Shown: in pieces, positions 1,324-26,808 of the stretch | How positions within the stretch are numbered: position 1 is the stretch's first letter | How the letters are laid out: the number at the start of each line of letters is the position of its first letter | Virus genome (UHGV): UHGV-0368904 | DNA: 37,227 nt | From: a virus | Reading direction: 5' to 3' (one strand) | The notes under the pieces: model-generated | The model's database searches: none | What the model saw: the letters and a program-made list of their open reading frames with translations, nothing else | Told to the model about the DNA's origin: nothing | Position numbers and translations under genes: made by a program

Positions 1324-1378
1324 TTGGCGGTTTTTTGGCGGAAAGTTGGCGGTTTTTATTAATATTTAGATGTTATTA
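1324..1378 (+). promoter_or_regulatory. candidate ArpU-dependent late promoter: TTGGCGG x3 at 1324, 1335, 1346 (11-bp phasing) followed by an extended -10 TGtTATTAT (1370-1378), with no -35
   Basis: Read directly from the sequence. In TP901-1 the late promoter sits just downstream of the ArpU-family gene alt and depends on upstream direct repeats, and this layout matches. Confidence 0.45.
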
Positions 1379-1388
1379 TGGTAGTGTC

Positions 1389-1452
1389 GAAAGATAAGGA
1401 GACGAGGGTAAGGCATGCATTACCTTTCTTAGCTCCGTTTCCTTTATCTTTT
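1389..1452 (+). other. long imperfect RNA hairpin about 10 nt downstream of the predicted late transcription start, ending in TCTTTT (attenuator-like)
   Basis: The 5' arm AAAGATAAGGAGACGAGG pairs with the 3' arm CTCCGTTTCCTTTATCTTT (about 17 bp, with bulges and two G-U pairs). The apical loop carries a small 4-5 bp inner hairpin (GGTAA...TTACC). Confidence 0.35.
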
Positions 1453-1696
1453 GAGGCTACCTATAAAAAATAAAGAATAAGGATGTGGAAAGTCCAGTTC
1501 TTTCTGTCTCGTTTAGTCTAGGTAGCAAATATTGCAATACACTTGGCATTAAGCTTACACGTAGACGTACGCCGAAAGCACTTGTCAAGATAGCGCTATG
1601 TAGTTTGCAATGATCACTCACAAATCAGACGTTCTCAAACTAAAAGAAATGGGGTGTAATTCCTCTCTCTTTTTTCTACAGGTTTGTGAGTGTTAA

Positions 1697-2369: not shown

Positions 2370-3692
2370 ATGAAATTTGAAAAGATGAAGTTATCAGAAC
2401 TACACCCTGCTGAATATAATCCAAGGGTTGAATTAAAGTCGGGCATGGAAGAATATGAGAAGCTTAAACAATCCATTTTGGAATTTGGCTTTGTTGATCC
2501 ACCAATTTTTAATAAAAGAACAGGAAATTTAGTTGGTGGCCATCAGCGTGTATCGGTAGCAAAAGATTTAGGAATTGGCGAAATTGAAGTATCCATTGTA
2601 GATTTACCTATCGAAAAAGAAAAAGCTTTAAATAAGATTTCTGGCCAGTGGGATGAAGATAAATTAGTTGAGTTATTGGAAGAGCTTAACACAGATGAAT
2701 TACCTCTAACAGGCTTCAATCAAGAAGAATTAGATGAGCTGTTAGCTGATATGAACAAATTTGAAACTACAGCCGATAGGGTAAAGGCAAATCCAGCAAA
2801 TACCAGTTTATTTGATTCTTTCTTGTTTCCGCCATTTTCTTATCTTGATACAAAAACTAAGCGTTGGTTAGATCGTAAACGCCAATGGAAAGAGCTAGGG
2901 ATCAAGAGTGAGCTTGGCCGTGAAGATAACTTGGTATTCAATCCTAGCATGCAAGCGCCAGGACTAGAAGGAACATCTATTTTTGACCCTGTTCTATGCG
3001 AATTAGGGTATCGTTGGTTTACACCTAAGACAGAAAGCAATATTTTTGATCCATTCGCTGGTGGTTCTGTGCGTGGAATAGTAGCTAAAGTTCTTGGGCA
3101 TAATTACACGGGTATTGATTTGAGAGCAGAACAAATAAGTGCAAATTATGCTAATGCTCGAGAAATTGGTTTAAGTGATATTAATTGGATTTGTGATGAC
3201 AGCTTGAATATAGACCATCATATTGAAGATGAAAGTCAAGATTTGTTATTTACATGTCCGCCGTATGCAGACCTTGAAGTTTATTCAGACGATGAACGAG
3301 ACATTAGTAATATGTCCTATGAAGAATTTGCAGAAGTATATAGTGAAATTTTAAAACGTTCTGCTAAAAAGCTAAAAGATAATCGCTTCGCAGTGGTCAC
3401 CATTTCTGATGTCAGAGATAAAAAAGGCTTTTATCAAGATTTAACTGGTTTGACTAAGAGAGCGTTTAGCACAGAAGGCTTATATTTCTACAATGACATG
3501 ATTTTGTTAAACGCAGTTGGTTCGGGTTCGCTAAGAGCTAGACGTTTGATGAACAATAGAAAAGTAACCAGAATGCACCAAAATGTATTAGTCTTTTATA
3601 AAGGAAATCCGAAAAATATTAATCAACATTTCGAAGTTTTAGAAACATTAGATGATGAACTAGAAAATCTCGTAAATGGACTGGACGAATAA
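2370..3692 (+). CDS. ParB-like nuclease domain fused to a DNA N6-adenine/N4-cytosine methyltransferase (phage orphan methyltransferase)
   Basis: The N-terminus carries a ParB/Srx-type motif (LHPAEYNPR...GGHQRV). The C-terminal part has motif I (DPFAGGSVRG) and a motif-IV-like TCPPY. Confidence 0.85.
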   Translation: MKFEKMKLSELHPAEYNPRVELKSGMEEYEKLKQSILEFGFVDPPIFNKRTGNLVGGHQRVSVAKDLGIGEIEVSIVDLPIEKEKALNKISGQWDEDKLVELLEELNTDELPLTGFNQEELDELLADMNKFETTADRVKANPANTSLFDSFLFPPFSYLDTKTKRWLDRKRQWKELGIKSELGREDNLVFNPSMQAPGLEGTSIFDPVLCELGYRWFTPKTESNIFDPFAGGSVRGIVAKVLGHNYTGIDLRAEQISANYANAREIGLSDINWICDDSLNIDHHIEDESQDLLFTCPPYADLEVYSDDERDISNMSYEEFAEVYSEILKRSAKKLKDNRFAVVTISDVRDKKGFYQDLTGLTKRAFSTEGLYFYNDMILLNAVGSGSLRARRLMNNRKVTRMHQNVLVFYKGNPKNINQHFEVLETLDDELENLVNGLDE

Positions 3693-3729: not shown

Positions 3730-3921
3730 ATGACAAATAAAGAATTAAAAAGCATAGCGGAAAACGCTAGAAGCCTATATAGAAGTAATCTAATTACTAG
3801 GGAAGAAGCAAAAGAACGTATCGAACCATTTATTGAAGCGTACAACAAAAAATCAATTGAGATCGCTAAGAAGTTTAACCAGAAACCGAAAACAATCTCT
3901 TTCGTTTCCTTTTTACGATAA
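3730..3921 (+). CDS. hypothetical protein (63 aa)
   Basis: GAGGTGAAGG Shine-Dalgarno. No domain recognised. Confidence 0.45.
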   Translation: MTNKELKSIAENARSLYRSNLITREEAKERIEPFIEAYNKKSIEIAKKFNQKPKTISFVSFLR

Positions 3922-4057
3922 AAAAAGAAGCCGAGTGCGCTAACACTCGACTACTTCAACGAGATACGAATACCCCGAAGACACAGAAGCTGGCATGCAT
4001 GCTCTAAAGGAAGTTCTGTGTCTTTTAGCATTATATAATAGTGCGAGGTATTCTACA

Positions 4058-4246
4058 ATGGAAACATTTGATTATGAAGTTCAACAAGCTTTAGAAAAGC
4101 AAAAGGTTGCGGAAGAAAATAACAAGATTATCAGGGCTGCAAAGGCTCAATGGATAAGTAATTTTAAAGAAGGTAAAGTTCGGTTGGACACTGTTAAAGA
4201 TTTAAAAGATTTAATTGAAATTGAGAGTCACTTAAAAGATGTATGA
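4058..4246 (+). CDS. small coiled-coil protein, moron gene 1 (62 aa from the ATG at 4058; ORF opens at 3995)
   Basis: A TATAAT hexamer at 4034-4039 and a GAGGT Shine-Dalgarno 9 nt upstream of the ATG at 4058. The sequence is charged and predicted helical. Confidence 0.4.
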   Translation: METFDYEVQQALEKQKVAEENNKIIRAAKAQWISNFKEGKVRLDTVKDLKDLIEIESHLKDV

Positions 4247-4331
4247 TTCATTAGGAAAATAATGTATGAATTTGACTGTATCCAATTATTCCTCGATAAT
4301 TGAAGAAGTAATTTATCAAGGAGGTCTTTTT

Positions 4332-5006
4332 ATGTCAATATTCTATAATAATCTAGGAGAATTTCAATGGGTATCTGTTACAGCTCTAATCAGTATACTT
4401 GGGATATTTGTAACTTTAGGATCGACAGTATATACAAACAAGAAAACTATTCGAGCTAATGTTCAATCGAAAACAAGTATTGAATGGATAAACAAGATAA
4501 GAGAATTGTCAGCAGAATTAATAAATAACTATGAATCTTTAGGTCATGCCTCACAAAAATTATATACTTGTATACTAAGTATATCAGCTTTGTCGGATTC
4601 ATATAACAATGAAAAAAAACAAATTCAAGAAGTAGGGTTTGGTGGTAACATGTCAGTTATCAATCGAATGAACTCTTTGCATAAAGAAAAAAAAGAATCA
4701 AGTTTAGAATACAATAAATTCAGTTCTATTACGCTTTCCTTATATAATCAACTCTCTCTTTACTTTGTAGATGACTTAACCAACAATGAAATATTAGAAC
4801 AGTTAGAAAAGCTAAAAGAATTTAATAGACGATTAGCGGATGTATTTAAAGAAGACATAGAAGTAAATCAGACTGAGTTTTCTTATCAAAAAGCTGTAGA
4901 CAATTATTTAAAAATAGTTGATGAGTTATCATATGAAATTGAAAATTTTAGGAAGCTTATAGCGAAGTACATCAAAGATGAATGGAATGCCATTCAGAAA
5001 AAATAG
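4332..5006 (+). CDS. N-terminally membrane-anchored coiled-coil protein, moron gene 2 (224 aa from the ATG at 4332; ORF opens at 4266)
   Basis: AAGGAGGT Shine-Dalgarno 7 nt upstream of the ATG at 4332. One TM helix (WVSVTALISILGIFVTLGSTVY). The gene is visibly AT-richer than its neighbours, and I recognise no domain. Confidence 0.5.
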   Translation: MSIFYNNLGEFQWVSVTALISILGIFVTLGSTVYTNKKTIRANVQSKTSIEWINKIRELSAELINNYESLGHASQKLYTCILSISALSDSYNNEKKQIQEVGFGGNMSVINRMNSLHKEKKESSLEYNKFSSITLSLYNQLSLYFVDDLTNNEILEQLEKLKEFNRRLADVFKEDIEVNQTEFSYQKAVDNYLKIVDELSYEIENFRKLIAKYIKDEWNAIQKK

Positions 5007-5052
5007 AAAACAAAACTCAACTATCAACATGAATGCGAGGTGGTGTTAATGG

Positions 5053-5910
5053 ATGGCTAGAAAAAGAGATCCACGTCGTGACCAGGCTAAAGAAATTTGG
5101 TTAAGGTCAAACGGTAAAAAGATTCTTAAAGATTTAGCAAATGAACTAAATGTTTCAGATTCTCAAATTAGAAAATGGAAATCGATTGATAAATGGAGTG
5201 CTGAATTGAAAGGTAATGTTACCAATGCCAAAGGTAACGTTACTAATCGAGGAGGCGCTCCATTTGGTAATCAGAACGCAGTAGGCAACAAAGGTAATAG
5301 CCGAGCCTCGCCACCACTTGGTAATAAGAACGCTATTAAAACTGGCGAATACGAAACAATATTTGCCGATATGTTATCTGATGAAGAAAAGGACATCTAT
5401 TCTAATCTGAATGATGATCCTTTTTTTATTTTGAATGATGAGATTCGCTTATTAAAGGTACGGCAGTTTAGAATGATGAAACGTATCAAAGAAGCTGAAA
5501 AAGGACTAAATGATGAAGAAGTTGAACGGTTACAACAGCTAAGGAAAATTAAAACACCAGTTGAAAAAGACGGTAGAAAGCTAGAAATAAAACGTGAAGT
5601 TATGCAAGATGTTCAAGTAACTCGTAAAACATTTAGAAAGTTAGATGACATCTTAGCTATTGAAGATGCGTTGACTCGTGTTAGTAATCAATTAACTAAG
5701 TCAATTAAGCAACTGAACGAATTATCATTGAGTCAAGACAAGAAAGTCATGCTTAATCGTCAAAACGAAAAACTTGCTGCTGAAATTCGGCGACTCAAAA
5801 TTCAGAATGGTGACGATATTCCAGAAGTTGAAGATGATGGGTTTATTGCAGCTATCAATAATATAGTTAATGATAATGAGGTGTGGAATGATGACAATAT
5901 CGAAACGTAA
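5053..5910 (+). CDS. terS: terminase small subunit
   Basis: An N-terminal HTH, a glycine/asparagine-rich repeat segment (KGNVTNAKGNVTNRGGAPFGNQNAVGNKGN) and a C-terminal coiled coil. It sits directly upstream of terL. Confidence 0.8.
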   Translation: MARKRDPRRDQAKEIWLRSNGKKILKDLANELNVSDSQIRKWKSIDKWSAELKGNVTNAKGNVTNRGGAPFGNQNAVGNKGNSRASPPLGNKNAIKTGEYETIFADMLSDEEKDIYSNLNDDPFFILNDEIRLLKVRQFRMMKRIKEAEKGLNDEEVERLQQLRKIKTPVEKDGRKLEIKREVMQDVQVTRKTFRKLDDILAIEDALTRVSNQLTKSIKQLNELSLSQDKKVMLNRQNEKLAAEIRRLKIQNGDDIPEVEDDGFIAAINNIVNDNEVWNDDNIET

Positions 5911-7180
5911 AACATCTGTTGTTTTCAAATTCACATCGTTTTCTAAAAAGCAGAAGCAAGTTTTATCTTGGTGGAAACATCCCAAGTATAAAGATAAAGA
6001 AGCTATTATTTGTGATGGGTCTGTTCGTGCTGGTAAAACAGTTATTATGTCGCTATCTTACATCTTTTGGGCAATGGAAAGCTATGATGAAGATCAATTC
6101 GGAATGGCTGGTAAAACAATTGGTTCATTAAGGCGTAACGTTATACGGCCATTAAAAAAGATGCTTAGGGGTCGTGGCTATACTGTTAAAGACAATCGAA
6201 CAGATAATATCCTTGAAATAACTAAAAATAATAAAACAAATTATTTCTTTTTATTTGGTGGTAAAGATGAAGCTTCGCAAGATTTGGTGCAAGGTCTAAC
6301 TGCAGCTGGATTTTTCTTTGATGAAGTGGCGCTTATGCCACAATCATTTGTAAACCAAGCAACAGCACGTTTATCTGTAGATGGTGCTAAATCATGGTTT
6401 AACTGTAATCCTGCTGGACCTCATCATTGGTTCAAACTTGAATGGTTAGACAAGCTAACAGAAAAGCATGCTATTCGCATTCACTTTACTATGGAAGATA
6501 ATCCTTCGCTTAGTGAAAGAGTAATTAATCGTTACAAACGAATGTATTCAGGAGTTTTTTATGACAGGTATATTCGTGGATTATGGGTATTATCTGAAGG
6601 AATTATTTTTGACAACTTTGATGCGGAAACGATGGTAAAAGAACCTCCCAAAAACGCTATAGCTAGTCAATATTACGTATCTATAGACTATGGAACTCAA
6701 AATGCTACAGTCTTTTTGTTATGGGCTAAATATGAAGAAAATTGGTATTGCATTGATGAGTATTATTACTCTGGTCGTGATGAATCAAAACAAAAAAGTG
6801 ATGATAAATATTTGAAAGACCTGAATTCTTTTGTAGAAGGAAAAAAAGTTAAAATTATTGTGGATCCGTCAGCAGCTTCGTTTATTGCATTACTTAGAGA
6901 GAATGGATACAAAGTTATAAAAGCCAAAAATAATGTTATTGACGGCATTCGTGCAACTCAAACAGCAATGAATGAAGGAAAGATTTATTTTTCTAGTAAC
7001 TGTAAAAATTTATTTGCAGAATTTGCATCATATATTTGGGATGAAAAAGCGGCAGATAGAGGCGAAGACAAGCCTATAAAACAACATGATCACGCGTGTG
7101 ATGCGCTAAGATACTTTGTTTACACCATTTTAAATAAATCACGAGGAATTAAGCTACAGAGCGTGAAGGGGGTTATTTAA
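5888..7180 (+). CDS. terL: terminase large subunit (PBSX/terminase_3-like)
   Basis: Walker A motif (DGSVRAGKT) and a C-terminal nuclease-like region. The ORF opens at 5870, with likely starts at ATG 5888/5891 after GAGGTG. It overlaps the end of terS. Confidence 0.9.
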   Translation: MMTISKRKTSVVFKFTSFSKKQKQVLSWWKHPKYKDKEAIICDGSVRAGKTVIMSLSYIFWAMESYDEDQFGMAGKTIGSLRRNVIRPLKKMLRGRGYTVKDNRTDNILEITKNNKTNYFFLFGGKDEASQDLVQGLTAAGFFFDEVALMPQSFVNQATARLSVDGAKSWFNCNPAGPHHWFKLEWLDKLTEKHAIRIHFTMEDNPSLSERVINRYKRMYSGVFYDRYIRGLWVLSEGIIFDNFDAETMVKEPPKNAIASQYYVSIDYGTQNATVFLLWAKYEENWYCIDEYYYSGRDESKQKSDDKYLKDLNSFVEGKKVKIIVDPSAASFIALLRENGYKVIKAKNNVIDGIRATQTAMNEGKIYFSSNCKNLFAEFASYIWDEKAADRGEDKPIKQHDHACDALRYFVYTILNKSRGIKLQSVKGVI

Positions 7181-8664
7181 TGACAGAAGAAGTAAGTAGA
7201 CCAAATACTGAAAGTAAAATACGTGAATTCGTTGACCTTTTAGGAAATCGTGTCTTTTATTGTGATAAAAACGCAAAGATTGACGAACGCTTGGTGGATA
7301 AATACATTAATAAGCATCGGAAATTAATAGGGTTTTACGAAGAATTAGAAAAGCTCTACAACGGTCAACATGATATTTATTATCAAAAAAATAAAGGAAT
7401 TGGAAAGCCTGACCATCGAATTGCAGTCAACTTTGCCCGTTATGTTGTAGATAGTTCTGCAGCTTTCTTTAACGGTAAACCAACAAAGATTACTCATCCA
7501 GATGGTGAGGTAAAAGAATTTGTTCAAAATTTCCGTAAACGAAATGAGGAAGAAGACAACGATGCAGAGCTTTCTAAGCTAACTGCTATTTATGGGCATG
7601 CTTATAAGCTTTTATATCAAAACGAAGAAGCAGAAACGTGCGTGACTTATTTAAAACCTACGCAAGGATTCATTGTTTACGCAGATGACTTATTAAAAGC
7701 GCCTATGTTTGCGGTTCTTTACAACAAAATGGCAAAGGACGAGCTAACAGCAACTGTTTATCCACAAAATAGCACAGAAACGTTTATTTTTACACAAGAC
7801 AAGACTTCTAAACGATTGGAAACTAAGAGAGGACCAACCGTTTTTCAGAAAGCCTTGTCTTATTTATTAGGTGGAAAAGAGGCAATCGCTAATCCGTACG
7901 GTGAAGTGCCTATGATTGAGTTTATGGAAAATGACGAACGACAAGGACGTATTGAGTCTGTGTGGTCGCTGATTAATAATTACAACGAAGCTCTATCAGA
8001 AAAAGCGAACGACGTGAGTTATTTTGCGGACGCTTACCTGAAAATGATAGGAGTAGATTTAGCTGACGAAAACGTCGCTGCTTATTTACGAGATAACCGA
8101 GTGATTAATAGTGCCACTCCTTTATCTGAAGGTGAAACAGTAGACATTGATTTTTTAGATAAACCTAGTTCGGATACAACACAAGAAAATCTGTTAGACC
8201 GATTAGAACGATTAATCTATCAAATGTCTATGACTTATAATGCAAACGATGAAAGTTTTAGTAATAACGCTTCAGGTATTTCGCTAGAATTTAAAATGCA
8301 AAATCCTAGAAACCTCGCACAAGCAAAAGCTAGGAAGTTTAAAAAAGCATATGCGCAAATGTACAAAATGATTTTTTCATTGCCTACGAATGTACCTGCT
8401 AATAAAGCGAAAGAATGGTTTAATTTAGAATACACTTTTGACTTTAATATTCCGCGCAATATTAAAGACGAAGCGGAAACTGCACAAAAACTTGAAGGGA
8501 TTGTTTCAAGAGAAACGCAATTAGGCGTATTATCGATTGTTTCTGACGTGACCCAAGAAATGGAACGTATAAAGGACGAAGAAACCGAAGAACGTTTAAA
8601 TCCACAAGTTGATTTTGGTAAATTTACTCAAGCTACGGAAGAAGTGACCGAAGAACATGAGTAA
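7180..8664 (+). CDS. portal protein (SPP1 gp6-like)
   Basis: 494 aa. The start overlaps the terL stop (TAATG). Its position and size fit a portal. Confidence 0.85.
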   Translation: MTEEVSRPNTESKIREFVDLLGNRVFYCDKNAKIDERLVDKYINKHRKLIGFYEELEKLYNGQHDIYYQKNKGIGKPDHRIAVNFARYVVDSSAAFFNGKPTKITHPDGEVKEFVQNFRKRNEEEDNDAELSKLTAIYGHAYKLLYQNEEAETCVTYLKPTQGFIVYADDLLKAPMFAVLYNKMAKDELTATVYPQNSTETFIFTQDKTSKRLETKRGPTVFQKALSYLLGGKEAIANPYGEVPMIEFMENDERQGRIESVWSLINNYNEALSEKANDVSYFADAYLKMIGVDLADENVAAYLRDNRVINSATPLSEGETVDIDFLDKPSSDTTQENLLDRLERLIYQMSMTYNANDESFSNNASGISLEFKMQNPRNLAQAKARKFKKAYAQMYKMIFSLPTNVPANKAKEWFNLEYTFDFNIPRNIKDEAETAQKLEGIVSRETQLGVLSIVSDVTQEMERIKDEETEERLNPQVDFGKFTQATEEVTEEHE

Positions 8665-22664: not shown

Positions 22665-23771
22665 ATGAAAAAAACTGTTAAATTATTAGTAGCTGTCGGA
22701 ATGGGATTAAGTTTTATGTTACCAATTGGCGCAAATGCTTACCAAATTGAACAAGACCCAATCAATTTCGGTGGCTATTTCCCTGGATATGCAACTAACG
22801 AATTGATTGTATTGCATGAGTCAGGAAATGGAAATAATGTCGGTCCAAATAGTTTAGACAATGAAACGGCATATATGAAACGAAACTGGCAAAATGCGTA
22901 CGTTTCATATTTTGTTGGTTCTGGTGGTCGAGTGAAACAGTTAGCGCCAGCAGGACAAATTCAATGGGGCGCAGGACAAACAGCGAATGCAAAAGCCTAT
23001 GCTCAAATCGAATTAGCACGAACGAATAACAAAGAAACGTTCAAGAAAGACTATGCAGCCTATGTTAATTTGATTCGTGATTTAGCAACTCAAATCGGCG
23101 CAACATTTGATTTAGATGATGGTACAGGATACGGAATTGTATCGCACGATTGGGTATCTAAAAATTGGTGGGGCGATCATACAGATCCTTACGGTTATTT
23201 AGCAAGTTGGGGAATTAGTAAAGCACAATTAGCACAAGACTTACAAACTGGACTTCCAGAAGACGGTCATGATGTTATTGTAAACCCCGGCAAACCAAAC
23301 AAGCCTAAATATAAAGTAGGGCAGAACGTTCGCTTTACAACGATCTATAAAAATCCAGATGCGCCAATCGAGCAACATATCAATGCAAATACTTTATGGA
23401 CACAAGTTGGTACAATCACACAGAAATTAGACGGTCGTAAAAATCTATATCGGATTGAAAATAGCGGTAAATTATTAGGATACGCGAACGATGGCGATAT
23501 TGCGGAGCTTTGGGAAAATAGCAAACCTAAGCCAGCTAAAGTTTTTACTATCGGTGTAAATGAAGGGATTGTGTTACGTACTGGCTCACCTAGTCTGTAT
23601 GCGCCAGTATATGGTATCTGGCCAAAAGGTGCGCAATTTAGATATGATTCAGTCCATGTAGCTGACGGCTATGTTTGGTTAGGTGGAACAGATTCAAATG
23701 GAACAAGAATTTACATTCCTGTTGGTCCAAATGATGGTGATCCAAATAATACTTGGGGAACTGGTTATTAA
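22665..23771 (+). CDS. endolysin: N-acetylmuramoyl-L-alanine amidase (amidase_2/PGRP) with an N-terminal Sec signal peptide and two C-terminal SH3b-like wall-binding repeats
   Basis: The signal peptide is MKKTVKLLVAVGMGLSFMLPIGANA-YQ. The catalytic region aligns by eye with T7 lysozyme-type amidase_2 (IVLHESGN ... YFVGSGGRV ... IVSHDWVS). The C-terminus has W/Y/G-rich SH3_5-like repeats. Confidence 0.85.
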   Translation: MKKTVKLLVAVGMGLSFMLPIGANAYQIEQDPINFGGYFPGYATNELIVLHESGNGNNVGPNSLDNETAYMKRNWQNAYVSYFVGSGGRVKQLAPAGQIQWGAGQTANAKAYAQIELARTNNKETFKKDYAAYVNLIRDLATQIGATFDLDDGTGYGIVSHDWVSKNWWGDHTDPYGYLASWGISKAQLAQDLQTGLPEDGHDVIVNPGKPNKPKYKVGQNVRFTTIYKNPDAPIEQHINANTLWTQVGTITQKLDGRKNLYRIENSGKLLGYANDGDIAELWENSKPKPAKVFTIGVNEGIVLRTGSPSLYAPVYGIWPKGAQFRYDSVHVADGYVWLGGTDSNGTRIYIPVGPNDGDPNNTWGTGY

Positions 23772-24102: not shown

Positions 24103-25257
24103 TTAAAAGCCGATGTATTTTGATAGTTTTTCGGTAGTTTTTTCTTTTCCATCATTTGTTAGATGTGTATAAGTATCTAAAGTTGTTTTTATGTTTGCAT
24201 GTCCTAATCGTTCCTGAACTTCTTTATGATCTGCACCAGCATAGTATAATAAAGATGCATGCGTGTGTCTAAATCCGTGAAGCCCAATGTTTGGTAAGTT
24301 AGCCTTTTTACGATAAATATTGTATCTATCTGTAATAGCTTGATTTATTGTAAATTCATTTTCTTCATTGGTGAAAATACGTGAGGGTTGTGTATAACCA
24401 AGTTTAAGAAGATATTTTTTTTGCTCTAATTTCCATTTTTTTAAGATAGTTATTGTTTTTGCATCTAATATTAGTGTTCTGTTTGATTTTTTTGTTTTTG
24501 GAGTATTTGATACATAATAATGGTCAGATTTAGCAATTGTTTTGTTGATTTGTAGTTCACCAGTTTTAATGTTTAAATCGTCCCAAGTAAGAGCTAACAA
24601 CTCCCCTATCCTACATCCACTAAAAGCTAATAATCTGAATAATGTATAATCTCTTATTGTAATGTAGGTACTTTCACTTTGTTCAATACTTTTTAAAAAT
24701 ATTTGAAGTTGATCTTTTGTATAGAATTTAATTTTCTTTTCTGATGTAATAATATCTTGATTTTTAGGAACTATTACATTAATCACTGGGTTTTGATTGG
24801 TAACCCCTATGTTAATAGCGAATTTGAAGACTTGATTCATATAATTTATAAAAAGGGGATATTGTTTTGAACTACCTTTTGAATGCCATGTATTCACGAT
24901 TTTCTGACAATAAGCAGTTGAAATTTTTGATATTTCAATTTTTCCAAATGAAGGTAGTATGTGTTTTCTGAAGATTATTTCTGTTCGAGAGTAGCTACTT
25001 TCTTTTACGGTATTTTTATAATTTTCTAGCCACATAAATGCTACTTCTTGGAATGTTATATTAGTGGAAGAGGGAATGCCATTTTTTTGAATTTCCATTT
25101 CTAACCTTGCTAATGCAATTTTAGCCTCTTTTTGAGTGCGAAATCCTCTCTTAGTTGTATACTTCTTTTTTCCAGTTAGCGGATCGGTACCAAGATATGT
25201 TTTGAAGTACCATGCTTTTTCACCATTCTTTTTTTTATATTGTTTTATCATTGCCAT
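24103..25257 (-). CDS. int: tyrosine site-specific integrase
   Basis: An N-terminal SAM-like/arm-binding domain. The C-terminal catalytic signature is HGFRHTHASLL ... LGHANIKTTLDTYTHL. AAGGAG Shine-Dalgarno. Confidence 0.9.
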   Translation of the reverse strand: MAMIKQYKKKNGEKAWYFKTYLGTDPLTGKKKYTTKRGFRTQKEAKIALARLEMEIQKNGIPSSTNITFQEVAFMWLENYKNTVKESSYSRTEIIFRKHILPSFGKIEISKISTAYCQKIVNTWHSKGSSKQYPLFINYMNQVFKFAINIGVTNQNPVINVIVPKNQDIITSEKKIKFYTKDQLQIFLKSIEQSESTYITIRDYTLFRLLAFSGCRIGELLALTWDDLNIKTGELQINKTIAKSDHYYVSNTPKTKKSNRTLILDAKTITILKKWKLEQKKYLLKLGYTQPSRIFTNEENEFTINQAITDRYNIYRKKANLPNIGLHGFRHTHASLLYYAGADHKEVQERLGHANIKTTLDTYTHLTNDGKEKTTEKLSKYIGF

Positions 25258-25322
25258 AAAATTCTCCTTTCGAACATACGTTCTTTTGTATTTTAAAAGA
25301 AAAGCCAGAAGGCTAATCTTGA

Positions 25323-25790
25323 TTAATTATTTAAATTATTTACTAATTCATTTCCTGAAACTAATAAATAAATAAGGGTTGCTCCAGAATTTTCCTCACC
25401 ATCCCATTCGTAAATAGCTTTTATTCTGCCGTAATTGACATCATTACAGGTTACTATCCATCTATTTTTATTATTAATATAATTTAAAGCGACATTCCAT
25501 GTATCTTTTCCTCGATATTTTAGAGTGTATCCTCTATCTTCACAATCAAGTTGGGTATAAGATATGAGAGTTTGTTCCTGTTTTTCAGTAATAGAAGATA
25601 CTTCTTTTTCTTGGTTATCATATATTGAGTTAGTCTGATATGTTTCTTCCAAAATAACTGATGACGAGGTTTCTTGATTATTCTCAATTGACGAGCTTTG
25701 TCTGTCAGTCTCATATTCGTTTGAGGAATCACATGCCGCTAATACTAAACAAGATAGTAGCATTGAGAAAATAATATTTCTTTTTTTCAT
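25323..25790 (-). CDS. lipoprotein (lipobox LAAC), candidate superinfection-exclusion protein
   Basis: Signal peptide plus lipobox, MKKRNIIFSMLLSCLVLAAC. A Ser/Glu-rich linker followed by a roughly 90-aa C-terminal domain. AT-rich. It sits between int and the ImmA-like gene. Confidence 0.6.
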   Translation of the reverse strand: MKKRNIIFSMLLSCLVLAACDSSNEYETDRQSSSIENNQETSSSVILEETYQTNSIYDNQEKEVSSITEKQEQTLISYTQLDCEDRGYTLKYRGKDTWNVALNYINNKNRWIVTCNDVNYGRIKAIYEWDGEENSGATLIYLLVSGNELVNNLNN

Positions 25791-25831
25791 AAAACTAAAA
25801 CTCCTTATTTAATAATAAAATTATTCATGTA

Positions 25832-26326
25832 CTAGTAATAACTATAGTAGCTATTATAGTCTGCTGTTTCTTTCAAATAATCCCAATCAACATAGCGTTC
25901 AGCCCATTCAGGAACACCACAACTTTTTAATAAACATTCTCGTGTAGGGTATTCTGCTAGATTAATTCCATGCAGCAACAACTCAACCATAAAAACGTTT
26001 GCCTCATATTCGACACCATAGATAGTGAAATTTCTTCCTTGTCTAGTTAAGGTTTGCGTATTAGTGTCATGCCCACAACAATGATGTCCTAGTTCATGGC
26101 AACAAGTTTCAAAATTTTCTTGGTCTGTGTTATTGCAATTTAAAATAATAATAGGAATTCGTAAAATATGTGAACGATACCCCATAAATTCCTTACCAAG
26201 ATCATCATAATCTATATGGATTCCTAAATAGTTTGCTAACTCATAAGGATTTTTTGTATTGAATTTTTTCACATATTTATTTACCATTTTTCTAATATCA
26301 TTTCTAAACACAATGTCACACCTCAC
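25832..26326 (-). CDS. ImmA/IrrE-family metallopeptidase (HEXXH)
   Basis: HELGHHCCGH motif. Translationally coupled downstream of the XRE-family repressor gene. Confidence 0.8.
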   Translation of the reverse strand: MRCDIVFRNDIRKMVNKYVKKFNTKNPYELANYLGIHIDYDDLGKEFMGYRSHILRIPIIILNCNNTDQENFETCCHELGHHCCGHDTNTQTLTRQGRNFTIYGVEYEANVFMVELLLHGINLAEYPTRECLLKSCGVPEWAERYVDWDYLKETADYNSYYSYY

Positions 26327-26748
26327 TCGGCTTTGTTGCTACGGTATTTTTTAGGAGTGAATTTCTCTTTGGCAAGAATTTTGGAGCGACGTACGGTTCT
26401 TTCTAAAGAATCACGTAATAATTCAGCATCTTCTTCATCGATTTCAACTCCACCGTTTTTCAGAAATGCTAAAGAATTTTCATTGCTAAGTCCATTTATT
26501 AAATCTTCTAATATCAGTTGTACATCTTTTTCATCTTTTTTATTGAATTCAAGTGTATCAGTGCGACCTAGTAAGTAATCAGTAGTTACACCGAAATAAT
26601 CGGCTAATTTTTTTAATGGCTCTATAGAAGGATTTTGTTTATCCCATTTTCCTATTGTTCCATTTGCAATATGAAGTTTACGTTCTAATTCAGCAATAGT
26701 GATTTTTCTTTGTGCTGCTAATTGCTTTATTCTATCTTTGGTATTCAT
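26323..26748 (-). CDS. XRE-family HTH repressor (cI-like), paired with the ImmA-like protease
   Basis: HTH (KQLAAQRKITIAELERKLHIANGTIGKWDKQN). The best start is the ATG at 26748 with GGAGG 9 nt upstream. The ORF is open to 26793. Confidence 0.8.
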   Translation of the reverse strand: MNTKDRIKQLAAQRKITIAELERKLHIANGTIGKWDKQNPSIEPLKKLADYFGVTTDYLLGRTDTLEFNKKDEKDVQLILEDLINGLSNENSLAFLKNGGVEIDEEDAELLRDSLERTVRRSKILAKEKFTPKKYRSNKAE

Positions 26749-26779
26749 TTTAGATTCCTCCAAAAAAATACAAAAATGG

Positions 26780-26808
26780 TTGACACCTACCAAATTAGAT
26801 AGTATACT
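26780..26808 (+). promoter_or_regulatory. consensus sigma-A promoter facing cro: TTGACA, 17-nt spacer, TATACT, overlapping the 8-bp palindrome AGTATACT
   Basis: Read directly from the sequence. It lies in the divergent cI/cro intergenic region. Confidence 0.5.

What the first reader, a model, noticed from the sequence alone, without database searches (positions are those of the whole stretch)
3995..5006. AT-rich two-gene moron with its own promoter between the ParB-methyltransferase and terS, a candidate abortive-infection/exclusion cassette
A TATAAT hexamer at 4034-4039 precedes a 62-aa coiled-coil protein (4058-4246). This is followed at 4332 by a 224-aa protein with a single N-terminal TM helix and a long cytoplasmic helical region. 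The composition is visibly AT-richer than the flanking methyltransferase and terS, and I recognise no known domain. The methyltransferase-to-terS junction is a classic insertion point for accessory and defence morons in Firmicute siphophages. The small-soluble-plus-membrane-anchored pair resembles known two-component abortive-infection and superinfection-exclusion modules. The upstream 63-aa ORF (3730-3921) may belong to the same insertion.
Basis: partly seen in the sequence, partly recalled or inferred. Interest (0 to 1): 0.55.

Follow-up and report, generated by a model that had tools for sequence, protein, structure and literature searches.

The report
Optional membrane-protein gene before phage terminase
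Only the 224-aa membrane-anchored protein gene, which carries its own promoter-like sequence, is an optional insert in a variable slot just upstream of this Enterococcus phage's small-terminase gene; related phages leave that slot empty or fill it with known abortive-infection genes, so it is a plausible but untested new anti-phage gene, while its 62-aa neighbour is ordinary conserved phage backbone.

Summary
The window is a whole temperate Enterococcus faecalis siphophage related to phiFL3A/B.

- **ORFs:** they exist as described, with true starts at 4058 and 4332.
- **Cassette:** it is one gene, not two. The 62-aa gene, the 63-aa ORF and the TATAAT at 4034 are backbone. They sit between a ParB/methyltransferase gene and terS in 60+ Enterococcus, Listeria and Lactobacillales phage contigs, whether or not a cargo gene follows.
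- **Mobile unit:** it spans about 4250-5007 and holds a near-consensus sigma-A promoter (TTGACT-17-GATAAT, 4272-4300), an RBS and the 224-aa ORF. Near-isogenic relatives (L040-L042) lack it, with 57 nt between orf62 and terS.
- **Slot contents:** among 63 complete loci the slot is empty in 29. Otherwise it holds alleles of this family, AbiH, a TIR-like effector or small membrane proteins, and every cargo examined except the gp80-type ORF has its own -10 box.
- **The protein:** an N-out single-pass anchor plus a cytoplasmic four-helix bundle (pLDDT 94.6). It matches no Pfam, PADLOC or PDB family. The anchor is conserved and the bundle hypervariable, and it is often split at poly-A runs.
- **Function:** a defence role (abortive infection or exclusion) is inferred from context only.
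- **By-product:** the TATAAT lies in a strongly covarying nested-palindrome element that has no Rfam match.

The parts
3730..3921 (+). 63-aa ORF (phrog_10302). It is backbone linked to the ParB-methyltransferase gene and is not part of the insertion.
   Evidence: PHROG hit E 2e-39. It is present with the 444-aa methyltransferase type both in loci with cargo and in loci with an empty slot (L040-42, L044, L055).
3916..4063 (+). Conserved structured intergenic element preceding orf62. It comprises hairpin 1 (3929-3952), an outer stem (3977-3988 paired with 4014-4025), a perfect palindrome GCATGCATGC (3993-4002) inside that stem, then a T-run and the CATTATATAAT box (TATAAT 4034-4039).
   Evidence: The covariance model finds it once per locus in 39 of the 48 sources searched, only where orf62 is present. 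93.7% of cells are paired, 12 of 19 pairs show compensatory changes, and 0 of 500 shuffles reach this. All 24 distinct inner loops contain a perfect 10-12-bp palindrome, against 1.5% expected. There is no Rfam match. RNA fold z-score is -2.2.
4058..4246 (+). orf62 (phrog_1476). A conserved helix-loop-helix protein that always lies between the ParB/methyltransferase gene and terS. It is backbone, not cargo.
   Evidence: PHROG hit E 1e-26. It is present in 66 of 69 fetched IMG/VR loci and in phiFL3A/B, phiEf11, Listeria B054 and Latilactobacillus P1. In 29 of 63 complete loci terS follows it directly. AF2 model.
4250..5007 (+). The actual insertion/deletion cassette: promoter-like element, RBS and the 224-aa gene. 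It lies between the orf62 stop codon and the conserved AAAACAAAACTCAAC box.
   Evidence: Megablast homology to phiFL3, phiFL1 and SEsuP-1 breaks at about 4243 and resumes at about 5004-5008. Junction alignments against empty sites L042 and L044.
4272..4300 (+). Sigma-A-type promoter-like element TTGACT-17-GATAAT, belonging to the cassette. An imperfect inverted repeat GATAATT/AATTTATC (4295-4317) overlaps the -10 box.
   Evidence: 10 of 12 consensus positions match. The same TTGAnn-17-GATAAT arrangement lies about 60 nt before the ATG of three other divergent alleles. One of these is L005, where homology to the window starts at the -35 box. Most other cargo types have their own TATAAT/TATACT box, and empty sites have none.
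4332..5006 (+). 224-aa cargo protein. It has an N-out single-pass membrane anchor (residues about 13-34, nt 4368-4433) that continues into a cytoplasmic four-helix bundle.
   Evidence: RBS GGAGG at 4320-4324 and homologue N-termini. AF2 pLDDT 94.6, with helices 13-101, 107-144, 149-173 and 182-223. 154 representative relatives exist, all unannotated. No consistent Pfam, PADLOC, PDB or BFVD match.
4612..4694 (+). Two A8 homopolymer runs (4612-4619 and 4687-4694) inside the cargo gene. The first coincides with the point where split variants of the gene break.
   Evidence: Two of the six 8-nt-or-longer A/T runs in the 37-kb window lie in this 675-nt gene. L029 is split at this point, and there are 122/124/132-aa cluster members. 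The phiFL3A/B allele is frameshifted in an A7 run.
5007..5021 (+). Conserved right-border box AAAACAAAACTCAAC, upstream of the terS Shine-Dalgarno sequence (GAGGTGGTG, 5037-5045).
   Evidence: It is present in the same place in empty sites and after nearly every cargo type examined.
5053..5910 (+). Small terminase subunit (terS), the right-hand backbone flank.
   Evidence: PF10668 E 3e-22 and phrog_1889 E 5e-109.
2370..3692 (+). ParB-N-domain / N6_N4 DNA methyltransferase fusion, the left-hand backbone module.
   Evidence: PF01555 E 1e-12, phrog_498 E 3e-151 and phrog_620.

Best explanation
The feature is a single-gene cargo cassette (window about 4250-5007). It sits in a hypervariable slot between a conserved small gene (orf62) and terS of a temperate Enterococcus faecalis phage.

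**Shown**
- The cassette is present or absent between otherwise near-identical flanks.
- It carries its own near-consensus sigma-A promoter-like element and an RBS.
- It encodes an N-out membrane anchor fused to a cytoplasmic four-helix bundle.
- It exists as many alleles. The anchor and juxtamembrane 67 residues are conserved (54-76% identity), while the bundle is highly divergent (16-33%).
- In relatives the same slot holds AbiH and TIR-like defence genes.

**Inferred**
- The gene is transcribed from its own promoter in the lysogen.
- It acts as a stand-alone anti-phage protein at the inner face of the membrane.
- The variable bundle recognises a component of an incoming or replicating phage.
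- The anchored protein then either blocks an early membrane-associated step (superinfection exclusion) or oligomerises through its transmembrane helix to damage the membrane (abortive infection).

The 62-aa gene, the 63-aa ORF and the TATAAT at 4034 are not part of this unit.
For: **Insertion/deletion polymorphism**
- L040-L042 share methyltransferase at 97%, orf63 at 100%, terS at 97% and terL at 98-100% amino-acid identity with the window. They have only 57 nt between orf62 and terS.

**Slot census over 63 complete loci**
- Empty: 29.
- This family: 9, plus 4 remote transmembrane-like relatives.
- AbiH: 5 (PF14253, E 1e-21).
- TIR-like: 4 (PADLOC, E 6e-8).
- Small membrane proteins and others make up the rest.
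- AbiN (E 7e-62) and a PD-T7-4-like DUF4145 gene lie in the same activator-to-terS interval of other relatives.

**Own promoter**
- TTGACT-17-GATAAT at 4272-4300.
- The same architecture is conserved in four alleles. In L005, which lacks orf62, homology begins at the -35 box.
- Every cargo type examined except the gp80-type ORF has a TATAAT, TATACT or GATAAT box before its RBS. Empty sites have none.

**Independence from phage backbone**
- The family is also found upstream of terS in four other backbone types.
- It is found between tail-fibre and lysis genes (L021).
- It is found in Streptococcus chromosomes between purK and purB with no phage genes nearby. That member is full-length by HMM (E 2e-16).

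**Structure and variation**
- High-confidence structure and topology.
- Conserved anchor against hypervariable bundle.
Against: - There is no sequence or fold similarity to any characterised defence, exclusion, holin or other protein. Function rests on guilt by association.
- The promoter is a sequence prediction only. Consensus-like hexamers are common in this AT-rich DNA: 22 were found against 16.8 expected.
- No plus-strand terminator separates the gene from terS. The gene has the same orientation as the late operon, so it may simply be co-transcribed late.
- The family's strong preference for the pre-terS position could reflect a packaging- or late-phase-related role.
- Split and frameshifted copies are frequent, so the gene is often dispensable.
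- The loci counted are not phylogenetically independent.
Confidence: 0.5

Rival explanations
1. The 62-aa soluble protein and the 224-aa membrane protein form a two-component abortive-infection or exclusion cassette. It is driven by the TATAAT at 4034 and may also include the 63-aa ORF.
For: - The two genes are adjacent and co-oriented in this window.
- They are also adjacent in phiFL3A/B, L010/L011, L026 and L097.
Against: - orf62 is followed directly by terS in 29 of 63 loci, and by unrelated cargo (AbiH, TIR-like and others) in 21 more.
- The 224-aa family occurs without orf62 in L005, L006, L021, L022, L024 and L098.
- orf62 is 87-90% conserved where the neighbouring cargo alleles are only about 30% identical.
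- The TATAAT sits in an element that is conserved irrespective of cargo.
Confidence: 0.04
2. The 224-aa protein serves the phage's own lytic cycle. It would be co-transcribed with the packaging genes. Possible roles are a membrane tether for replication or packaging, a modulator of lysis timing, or exclusion of competitors only during lytic growth.
For: - The orientation matches the late operon, and no terminator lies before terS.
- The family is very consistently placed just upstream of terS across different backbones.
- ArpU-type repeats at 1324-1352 place the late promoter upstream of the whole block (PMC3753634).
Against: - Near-isogenic phages lack the gene, and many copies are frameshifted, so it is non-essential.
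- It carries its own sigma-A-like promoter.
- Family members exist outside phages, between purK and purB in Streptococcus, and at a different moron site (L021).
- Its alternatives in the slot are abortive-infection genes.
Confidence: 0.2
3. The protein is a counter-defence factor or a lysogenic-conversion factor. It would act on a host membrane-associated system or on cell-envelope physiology, rather than being an anti-phage protein.
For: - Related phages carry anti-defence genes elsewhere in the late region: a Tad2-like gene in L026 and an Acb2/Tad1-like gene in L024.
- Hypervariability also fits an arms race with host targets.
Against: - No similarity to any known anti-defence family.
- The recognisable cargo in this particular slot is defence-type (AbiH, TIR-like), not anti-defence.
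- The chromosomal stand-alone copy in Streptococcus is hard to reconcile with a phage counter-defence role.
Confidence: 0.13
4. The cassette is functionally neutral or decaying selfish cargo. It would persist only because the orf62-terS junction tolerates insertions.
For: - Truncated forms caused by poly-A frameshifts are frequent in databases and in phiFL3A/B.
- About half of the loci have an empty slot.
Against: - The family has 154 representatives at 50% identity, with full-length conservation of the anchor and of W52, Y213, E217 and W218.
- The fold is predicted with confidence.
- The intact window-type protein occurs on hundreds of E. faecalis contigs.
- The promoter and RBS are conserved.
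Confidence: 0.1

Closest known systems
Morons of lambdoid phages (independent promoter-gene-terminator units inserted between adjacent genes of related phages; named from my own knowledge of the HK97/HK022 comparisons)
   Same: - Presence/absence polymorphism between two genes that are adjacent in relatives.
- Its own promoter-like element.
- Lower GC than its neighbours.
- Located inside the late region.
   Different: - No terminator of its own.
- The GC difference is mostly amino-acid composition.
- The slot behaves as a multi-allelic hotspot rather than a one-off insertion.
Defence hotspots of P2-like phages and P4-like satellites (PMC9122126)
   Same: A fixed slot between conserved phage genes that holds alternating cargo. 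Part of that cargo is known defence genes (here AbiH and TIR-like) and part is unknown.
   Different: - The hosts are Lactobacillales siphophages.
- The location differs: between orf62 and terS, at the start of the packaging module.
- The cargo set differs.
- None of the cargo here has been tested.
TERi locus of Listeria comK prophages (bioRxiv 10.1101/2025.02.27.640495)
   Same: The concept is shared: a prophage locus where unrelated small defence genes alternate and are transcribed in the lysogen.
   Different: - TERi lies on the minus strand of the early module and shares one conserved promoter. Here each cargo brings its own promoter-like box.
- There is no sequence relationship.
- TerI proteins are small, soluble inhibitors of packaging.
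Membrane-anchored prophage superinfection-exclusion proteins of lactic acid bacteria (lactococcal Sie2009 type; from my own knowledge)
   Same: A small prophage-encoded protein with a single N-terminal transmembrane segment, in Lactobacillales temperate phages, acting as a single gene.
   Different: - Those genes sit between the integrase and repressor genes. This gene is at terS.
- No PHROG annotated as superinfection exclusion was hit.
- The bulk of this protein is predicted to be cytoplasmic.
- The classic Sie position in this window (25323-25790) is occupied by another unknown ORF.
SLATT_5 (PF18160), predicted membrane effector domains of conflict systems
   Same: A transmembrane segment followed by a helical cytoplasmic region. 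There is a weak hit (E 0.005) over residues 13-100.
   Different: - The score of 16.6 bits is below the gathering threshold of 29.5.
- This protein has one transmembrane helix rather than two.
- Only 1 of 68 family members hits the model.
- No SMODS, SLOG or TIR partner gene is present.

Membership tests
Moron (autonomous accessory transcription unit in a phage genome) | Inserted between two genes that are adjacent in related phages | tested here: met
   L040-L042 and 26 other loci have orf62 directly followed by terS. The window has about 757 extra bp.
Moron (autonomous accessory transcription unit in a phage genome) | Own promoter | tested here: inconclusive
   A near-consensus TTGACT-17-GATAAT lies at 4272-4300 and is conserved with the gene in four alleles. 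This is sequence evidence only, with no transcript data.
Moron (autonomous accessory transcription unit in a phage genome) | Own terminator | tested here: not met
   No plus-strand terminator-like site lies between 5006 and 5053. The only hairpin (4979-4996) has its T-run on the minus strand.
Moron (autonomous accessory transcription unit in a phage genome) | Base composition distinct from its neighbours | tested here: met
   GC is 28.4% against 35.1% (z -2.2, lowest 3.1% of windows). GC3, however, is 0.231 against 0.245-0.279.
Two-component abortive-infection / exclusion module (small soluble protein plus membrane protein) | The two genes co-occur and are gained or lost together | tested here: not met
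   orf62 occurs without the family in at least 50 loci. The family occurs without orf62 in at least 6 contexts.
Phage defence hotspot cargo | A variable slot with conserved borders and multiple unrelated alternative cargos | tested here: met
   The left border is the orf62 stop codon and the right border is the AAAAC(A/G)AAACTCAA box. There are at least 8 cargo types plus the empty state.
Phage defence hotspot cargo | Some alternative cargos are recognised defence genes | tested here: met
   AbiH PF14253 scores 73.8-78.4 bits, above the 30.9 cut-off, in the two AbiH cargos scanned, which stand for five loci. A TIR effector model hits at E 6e-8 in the phiEf11 ORF that represents four loci.
Phage defence hotspot cargo | The cargo protects against phage when expressed | not testable with these tools
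   Needs cloning and phage challenge.
SLATT_5 (PF18160) | Score at or above the Pfam gathering threshold, consistently across the family | tested here: not met
   16.6 bits against a 29.5 cut-off, and only 1 of 68 members hit.
SLATT_5 (PF18160) | Two transmembrane helices | tested here: not met
   One hydrophobic segment in the hydropathy scan and in the AF2 model.
Known anti-phage defence proteins (PADLOC-DB 2.0) | Significant match to any PADLOC model | tested here: not met
   No hit at E up to 10 for the window protein. There are only scattered single hits among the 68 relatives.
Annotated superinfection-exclusion or holin families (PHROGs, Pfam) | Match to a family annotated with that function | tested here: not met
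   Only unknown-function PHROGs are hit (phrog_19998, 34812, 30332). One of 68 relatives weakly hits a holin model.
Small terminase subunit (the annotation given to the phiFL3A gp40 fragment of this family) | Similarity to terS domains or fold | tested here: not met
   No terS Pfam or PHROG hit for the 224-aa protein. The BFVD hit D2IZT2 is merely the C-terminal fragment of the frameshifted phiFL3A homologue.

The most novel reading that the evidence does not exclude
The 224-aa protein would found a new, widespread Lactobacillales family of single-gene, membrane-anchored anti-phage proteins.

- A conserved N-out anchor would carry a rapidly diversifying cytoplasmic helical-bundle sensor.
- Slippage-prone poly-A tracts would switch the gene on and off.
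- It would be delivered by a previously undescribed defence hotspot at the orf62-terS junction.
- The adjacent covarying nested-palindrome element would be a new DNA-level (dimer-binding, possibly ParB-linked) or RNA-level control site in front of the packaging genes.
Probability: 0.25. Interest if true: 0.65.

Novelty: new variant of a known kind. Interest (0 to 1): 0.45.

Why it matters
- **A new search site.** If the inference holds, the orf62-terS junction is a compact, easily recognised defence hotspot in temperate phages of enterococci, listeriae and lactobacilli. It has a fixed left gene and a fixed 15-nt right box. It could be mined systematically for new anti-phage genes in clinically relevant hosts where phage therapy is being developed.
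- **A testable candidate.** The 224-aa family is the commonest unknown cargo there. It occurs on hundreds of E. faecalis contigs, so it could influence the susceptibility of clinical strains to therapeutic phages.
- **A corrected annotation.** The 'terminase small subunit' label on phiFL3A gp40 is wrong, and phiFL3A/B carry a frameshifted copy of this gene.
- **An unexplained element.** The structured element in front of orf62 is strongly conserved and bears on how these phages control or initiate packaging.

Tried and rejected
- **SLATT_5 lead.** Rejected: the score is sub-threshold, there is one transmembrane helix rather than two, and only 1 of 68 relatives hits.
- **PADLOC, Pfam and PHROG scans** of the protein and of 68 relatives. 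No functional family was found.
- **Structure-based searches.**
  - BFVD returned only the protein's own family.
  - PDB Foldseek returned only generic or designed helical bundles (E at least 0.02).
  - The PDB profile search returned only coiled-coil noise.
- **The search for related loci** with the 68-sequence alignment failed because there was no conserved block. The 4-sequence alignment found few extra loci.
Only a single-sequence model was obtained.
- **Profile search of orf62 against PDB.** Nothing was found.
- **Literature searches.** Nothing was found on this family or on this slot. The TERi paper is analogous in concept but concerns a different locus.
- **TATAAT at 4034 as the cassette's promoter.** Rejected because it is backbone.
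- **The element as a terS-recognised pac site.** Considered unlikely, because near-identical elements precede two unrelated terS families (PF10668 and Terminase_2).
- **Coupling of palindrome type to neighbouring proteins.**
  - Association with the upstream ParB-domain protein gave p 0.0005, against 0.10 for orf62 and 0.28 for terS.
  - The effect is small and confounded by linkage, and it has counter-examples (L072 against L076). It is kept only as a lead.
Full report
**What the window is.** Megablast places the region in the Phifelvirus group of temperate Enterococcus faecalis siphophages. phiFL3A/B match at about 82% nucleotide identity.

The window holds a complete temperate phage:
- an ArpU-type late activator (902-1318), a tRNA-Trp (1697-1768), a ParB-N/N6_N4 methyltransferase fusion (2370-3692), terS, terL and portal (5053-8664);
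- an endolysin (22665-23771);
- an integrase, an ImmA-like peptidase and an HTH repressor on the minus strand (24103-26793), and a Rha anti-repressor.

**Checking the observation.**
- The TATAAT (4034-4039), the 62-aa ORF (4058-4246) and the 224-aa ORF (4332-5006) are all present.
- Gene callers extend the 224-aa ORF to 246 aa from 4266. The GGAGG at 4320 and four homologues that begin MSIFYN/MSILYD/MSMFYN fix the start at 4332.
- The stated start of the finding, 3995, is an in-frame ATG inside a conserved palindrome and is not a gene start.
- The 224-aa gene has GC 28.4% against a window mean of 35.1% (z -2.2; 3.1% of equal-sized windows are as low).
- Its third-position GC (0.231) is close to its neighbours (0.245-0.279). 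The 62-aa gene (31.2%) is unremarkable.
- The TATAAT has no -35 box or TG extension and was not picked up by the promoter scan.

**The 62-aa gene and the TATAAT are backbone.**
- tblastn finds the 62-aa protein (phrog_1476) in phiFL3A/B, phiEf11, Listeria B054 and LP041, and Latilactobacillus TMW 1.2272 P1.
- It always lies after a ParB or methyltransferase gene and before terS. In the Latilactobacillus phage terS follows directly.
- A scan of IMG/VR gave 69 loci. In the 63 loci that contain both orf62 and terS, the interval between them is 5-59 nt (empty) in 29 and is occupied in 34.
- L040, L041 and L042 are near-isogenic with the window and have a 57-nt gap. Their amino-acid identities to the window are methyltransferase 97%, orf63 100%, orf62 87%, terS 97% and terL 98-100%.
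- The 63-aa ORF follows the 444-aa methyltransferase type whatever the cargo.
- The two-gene cassette is therefore refuted. The unit that comes and goes is a single gene.

**Boundaries of the cassette.**
- Homology to phiFL3, phiFL1 and SEsuP-1 breaks at about 4243 and resumes at about 5004-5008.
- Junction alignments show the insert starts just after the orf62 stop codon.
- The insert ends at a box, AAAACAAAACTCAAC (5007-5021). This box precedes the terS Shine-Dalgarno sequence in empty sites and after nearly every cargo type examined.

**The cassette has its own promoter-like element.**
- TTGACT-17-GATAAT lies at 4272-4300, matching 10 of 12 consensus positions.
- The same arrangement, TTGAnn-17-GATAAT about 60 nt before the ATG, is found in three other alleles whose proteins are only 30-44% identical.
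- In L005, which has no orf62, similarity to the window begins at the -35 box.
- Most other cargo types in the slot also have a TATAAT, TATACT or TGnTATAAT box just before their RBS. Empty sites have none.
- No plus-strand terminator separates the gene from terS.

**The protein.**
- AlphaFold2 with 68 relatives gives pLDDT 94.6. One long helix (13-101) starts as the only hydrophobic segment (about 13-34), and three further helices complete a four-helix bundle.
- The flanking charges are acidic on the N side and KK..R..K on the C side. This predicts N-out/C-in, so the bundle is cytoplasmic (the positive-inside rule is from general knowledge).
- A profile search of 1.8 billion representatives finds 154 relatives.
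- Named members are all 'hypothetical' proteins of E. faecalis, E. faecium, E. hirae, E. mundtii, E. lactis and Carnobacterium. Streptococcus members came from the genome scan.
- Pfam, PADLOC and PHROGs give no functional family. The SLATT_5 hit is sub-threshold and is a singleton.
- Foldseek against PDB and BFVD and a PDB profile search return only generic helical bundles. The one exception is phiFL3A gp40, which is the C-terminal half of the frameshifted phiFL3 homologue and is wrongly annotated as terS.
- Between alleles the first 67 residues are 54-76% identical and the remainder 16-33%.
- Two A8 runs lie in the gene. Split copies break at the first one, and the phiFL3 allele is broken in an A7 run.

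**Context of the family.** It lies immediately upstream of terS in at least five backbone types:
- with orf62 in the window, L026, L010 and L097;
- without orf62 in L005, L006, L024 and L098.

It also lies between the tail-fibre and holin genes in a myovirus-like contig (L021). In Streptococcus chromosomes it lies between purK and purB, with no phage genes nearby.

**What else occupies the slot.**
- AbiH (PF14253, above gathering threshold) fills it in five loci.
- A TIR-like effector (phiEf11 ORF65 type) fills it in four.
- The remainder are multi-pass membrane proteins, an 81-aa ORF, a 125-aa ORF and DUF6275.
- Elsewhere in the activator-to-terS interval, phiFL1A gp35 is AbiN (E 7e-62). A DUF4145 gene resembles PD-T7-4.

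It is the basis for my functional inference, which remains guilt by association.

**Mechanism proposed.**
- Shown: the gene is an optional, promoter-bearing single-gene cargo that encodes a membrane-anchored cytoplasmic bundle with a hypervariable distal part.
- Inferred, at about 50%: it is expressed in the lysogen and acts as a stand-alone anti-phage factor at the inner membrane face. The variable bundle would be the recognition part.
- The output would be either a block of an early membrane-associated step or membrane damage through oligomerisation. I cannot separate these two.

**By-product: a conserved structured element.** The TATAAT sits at the 3' end of a roughly 150-nt element at 3916-4063.
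- A covariance model finds it once per locus, only where orf62 is present, in 39 sources spanning Enterococcus, Listeria and Latilactobacillus phages.
- For its two stems, 93.7% of cells pair and 12 of 19 pairs show compensatory changes. No shuffle out of 500 and no slid register comes close.
- Inside the outer stem, every one of 24 distinct loops has a perfect 10-12-bp GC-rich palindrome followed by a T-rich stretch. Eight different palindromes occur, and 1.5% would be expected by chance.
- Because the centre of the palindrome is also symmetric, selection at the double-stranded DNA level (a dimeric binding site) seems more likely than an RNA hairpin for this inner part. The stems could still act as a terminator-like RNA structure (z -2.2).
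- Rfam has nothing like it.
- Near-identical elements precede two unrelated terS families, which argues against a terS-specific pac site.
- Palindrome type tracks the upstream ParB-domain protein slightly better than orf62 or terS, but the signal is weak.
- Three TTGGCGG repeats directly after arpU (1324-1352) match the published layout of ArpU binding sites (PMC3753634). The late promoter is therefore probably about 2.7 kb upstream, and the element is probably transcribed through.

**Verdict.**
- The finding is best described as one cargo gene of an uncharacterised family in a real defence hotspot.
- It is a new variant of a known kind of arrangement, of moderate interest, with a clear experiment to settle it.

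Noticed in passing
window 3916-4063 (also L014 2532-2676, L015 3332-3488, and L028-L094): A conserved element of about 150 nt lies upstream of orf62, with strong covariation. It consists of a hairpin, an 11-bp outer stem enclosing a perfect 10-12-bp GC-rich palindrome (eight different palindromes across phages), a T-rich stretch and a CATTnTA box. It has no Rfam match. It is found only next to orf62, in Enterococcus, Listeria and Latilactobacillus phages. Its function is unknown; it could be a dimer-binding site, a regulated terminator or a packaging-related site.
   Followed up: partly
window 1324-1352: Three 7-nt direct repeats TTGGCGG, spaced 11 bp apart, lie immediately after the arpU stop codon. 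This matches the layout of ArpU/RinA/LtrC binding repeats upstream of late promoters (PMC3753634). It puts the late promoter at about 1320-1385.
   Followed up: partly
window 1380-1461 and 1940-1973: There is a long imperfect hairpin (18-nt arms) just downstream of the putative late promoter. A strong plus-strand intrinsic terminator follows the tRNA-Trp, inside what should be the late transcript. This raises the question of how transcription reaches the methyltransferase and packaging genes.
   Followed up: no
window 4612-4619 and 4687-4694; L001 about 4530 (phiFL3B); L029: A7-A8 homopolymer runs lie inside the cargo gene. Split variants of the window-type gene break at the first A8 run, and the phiFL3-type allele is broken in an A7 run. 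In the phiFL3-type allele, truncated forms are on about 78 contigs against about 140 for intact ones. This could be phase variation, recurrent inactivation or sequencing error.
   Followed up: partly
L002 6096-6539 (phiFL3A gp40) and L001 4420-5039 (phiFL3B gp42+gp43): phiFL3A gp40 is annotated 'terminase small subunit'. It is in fact the C-terminal fragment of a frameshifted homologue of the 224-aa membrane protein. gp39/gp42 is the N-terminal fragment.
   Followed up: yes
window 5007-5021: The box AAAACAAAACTCAAC lies about 15 nt upstream of the terS Shine-Dalgarno sequence. It is conserved from Enterococcus to Listeria phages whatever precedes it, and it marks the right border of the hotspot. 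It may be a recombination linker or a functional site for terS expression.
   Followed up: partly
window 25323-25790 (minus strand): A 155-aa ORF with no Pfam or PADLOC hit lies between the integrase and the ImmA-like peptidase, in the lowest-GC part of the window. This is the classic position of superinfection-exclusion genes in Firmicute phages.
   Followed up: no
L022 5884-6693 and L023 (Streptococcus sp. / S. mitis chromosomes): A full-length member of the 224-aa family lies between purK and purB with no phage genes nearby. Its likely true start is an internal MSIFYN.
   Followed up: partly
L003 1950-2564 (phiFL1A gp35); L012 3376-4296 (phiEf11 ORF65); L006 8809-9420: Three unannotated or 'hypothetical' genes of published phages match defence models. 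phiFL1A gp35 matches AbiN (E 7e-62). phiEf11 ORF65 matches a TIR effector model (E 6e-8). A DUF4145 protein matches PD-T7-4 (E 2e-6).
   Followed up: partly
window 2370-3692 with 3993-4002: Across loci, the type of palindrome in the element tracks the N-terminal ParB domain of the upstream protein (permutation p 0.0005) more than orf62 (0.10) or terS (0.28). This hints at a parS-like relationship. The effect is small and there are counter-examples.
   Followed up: partly
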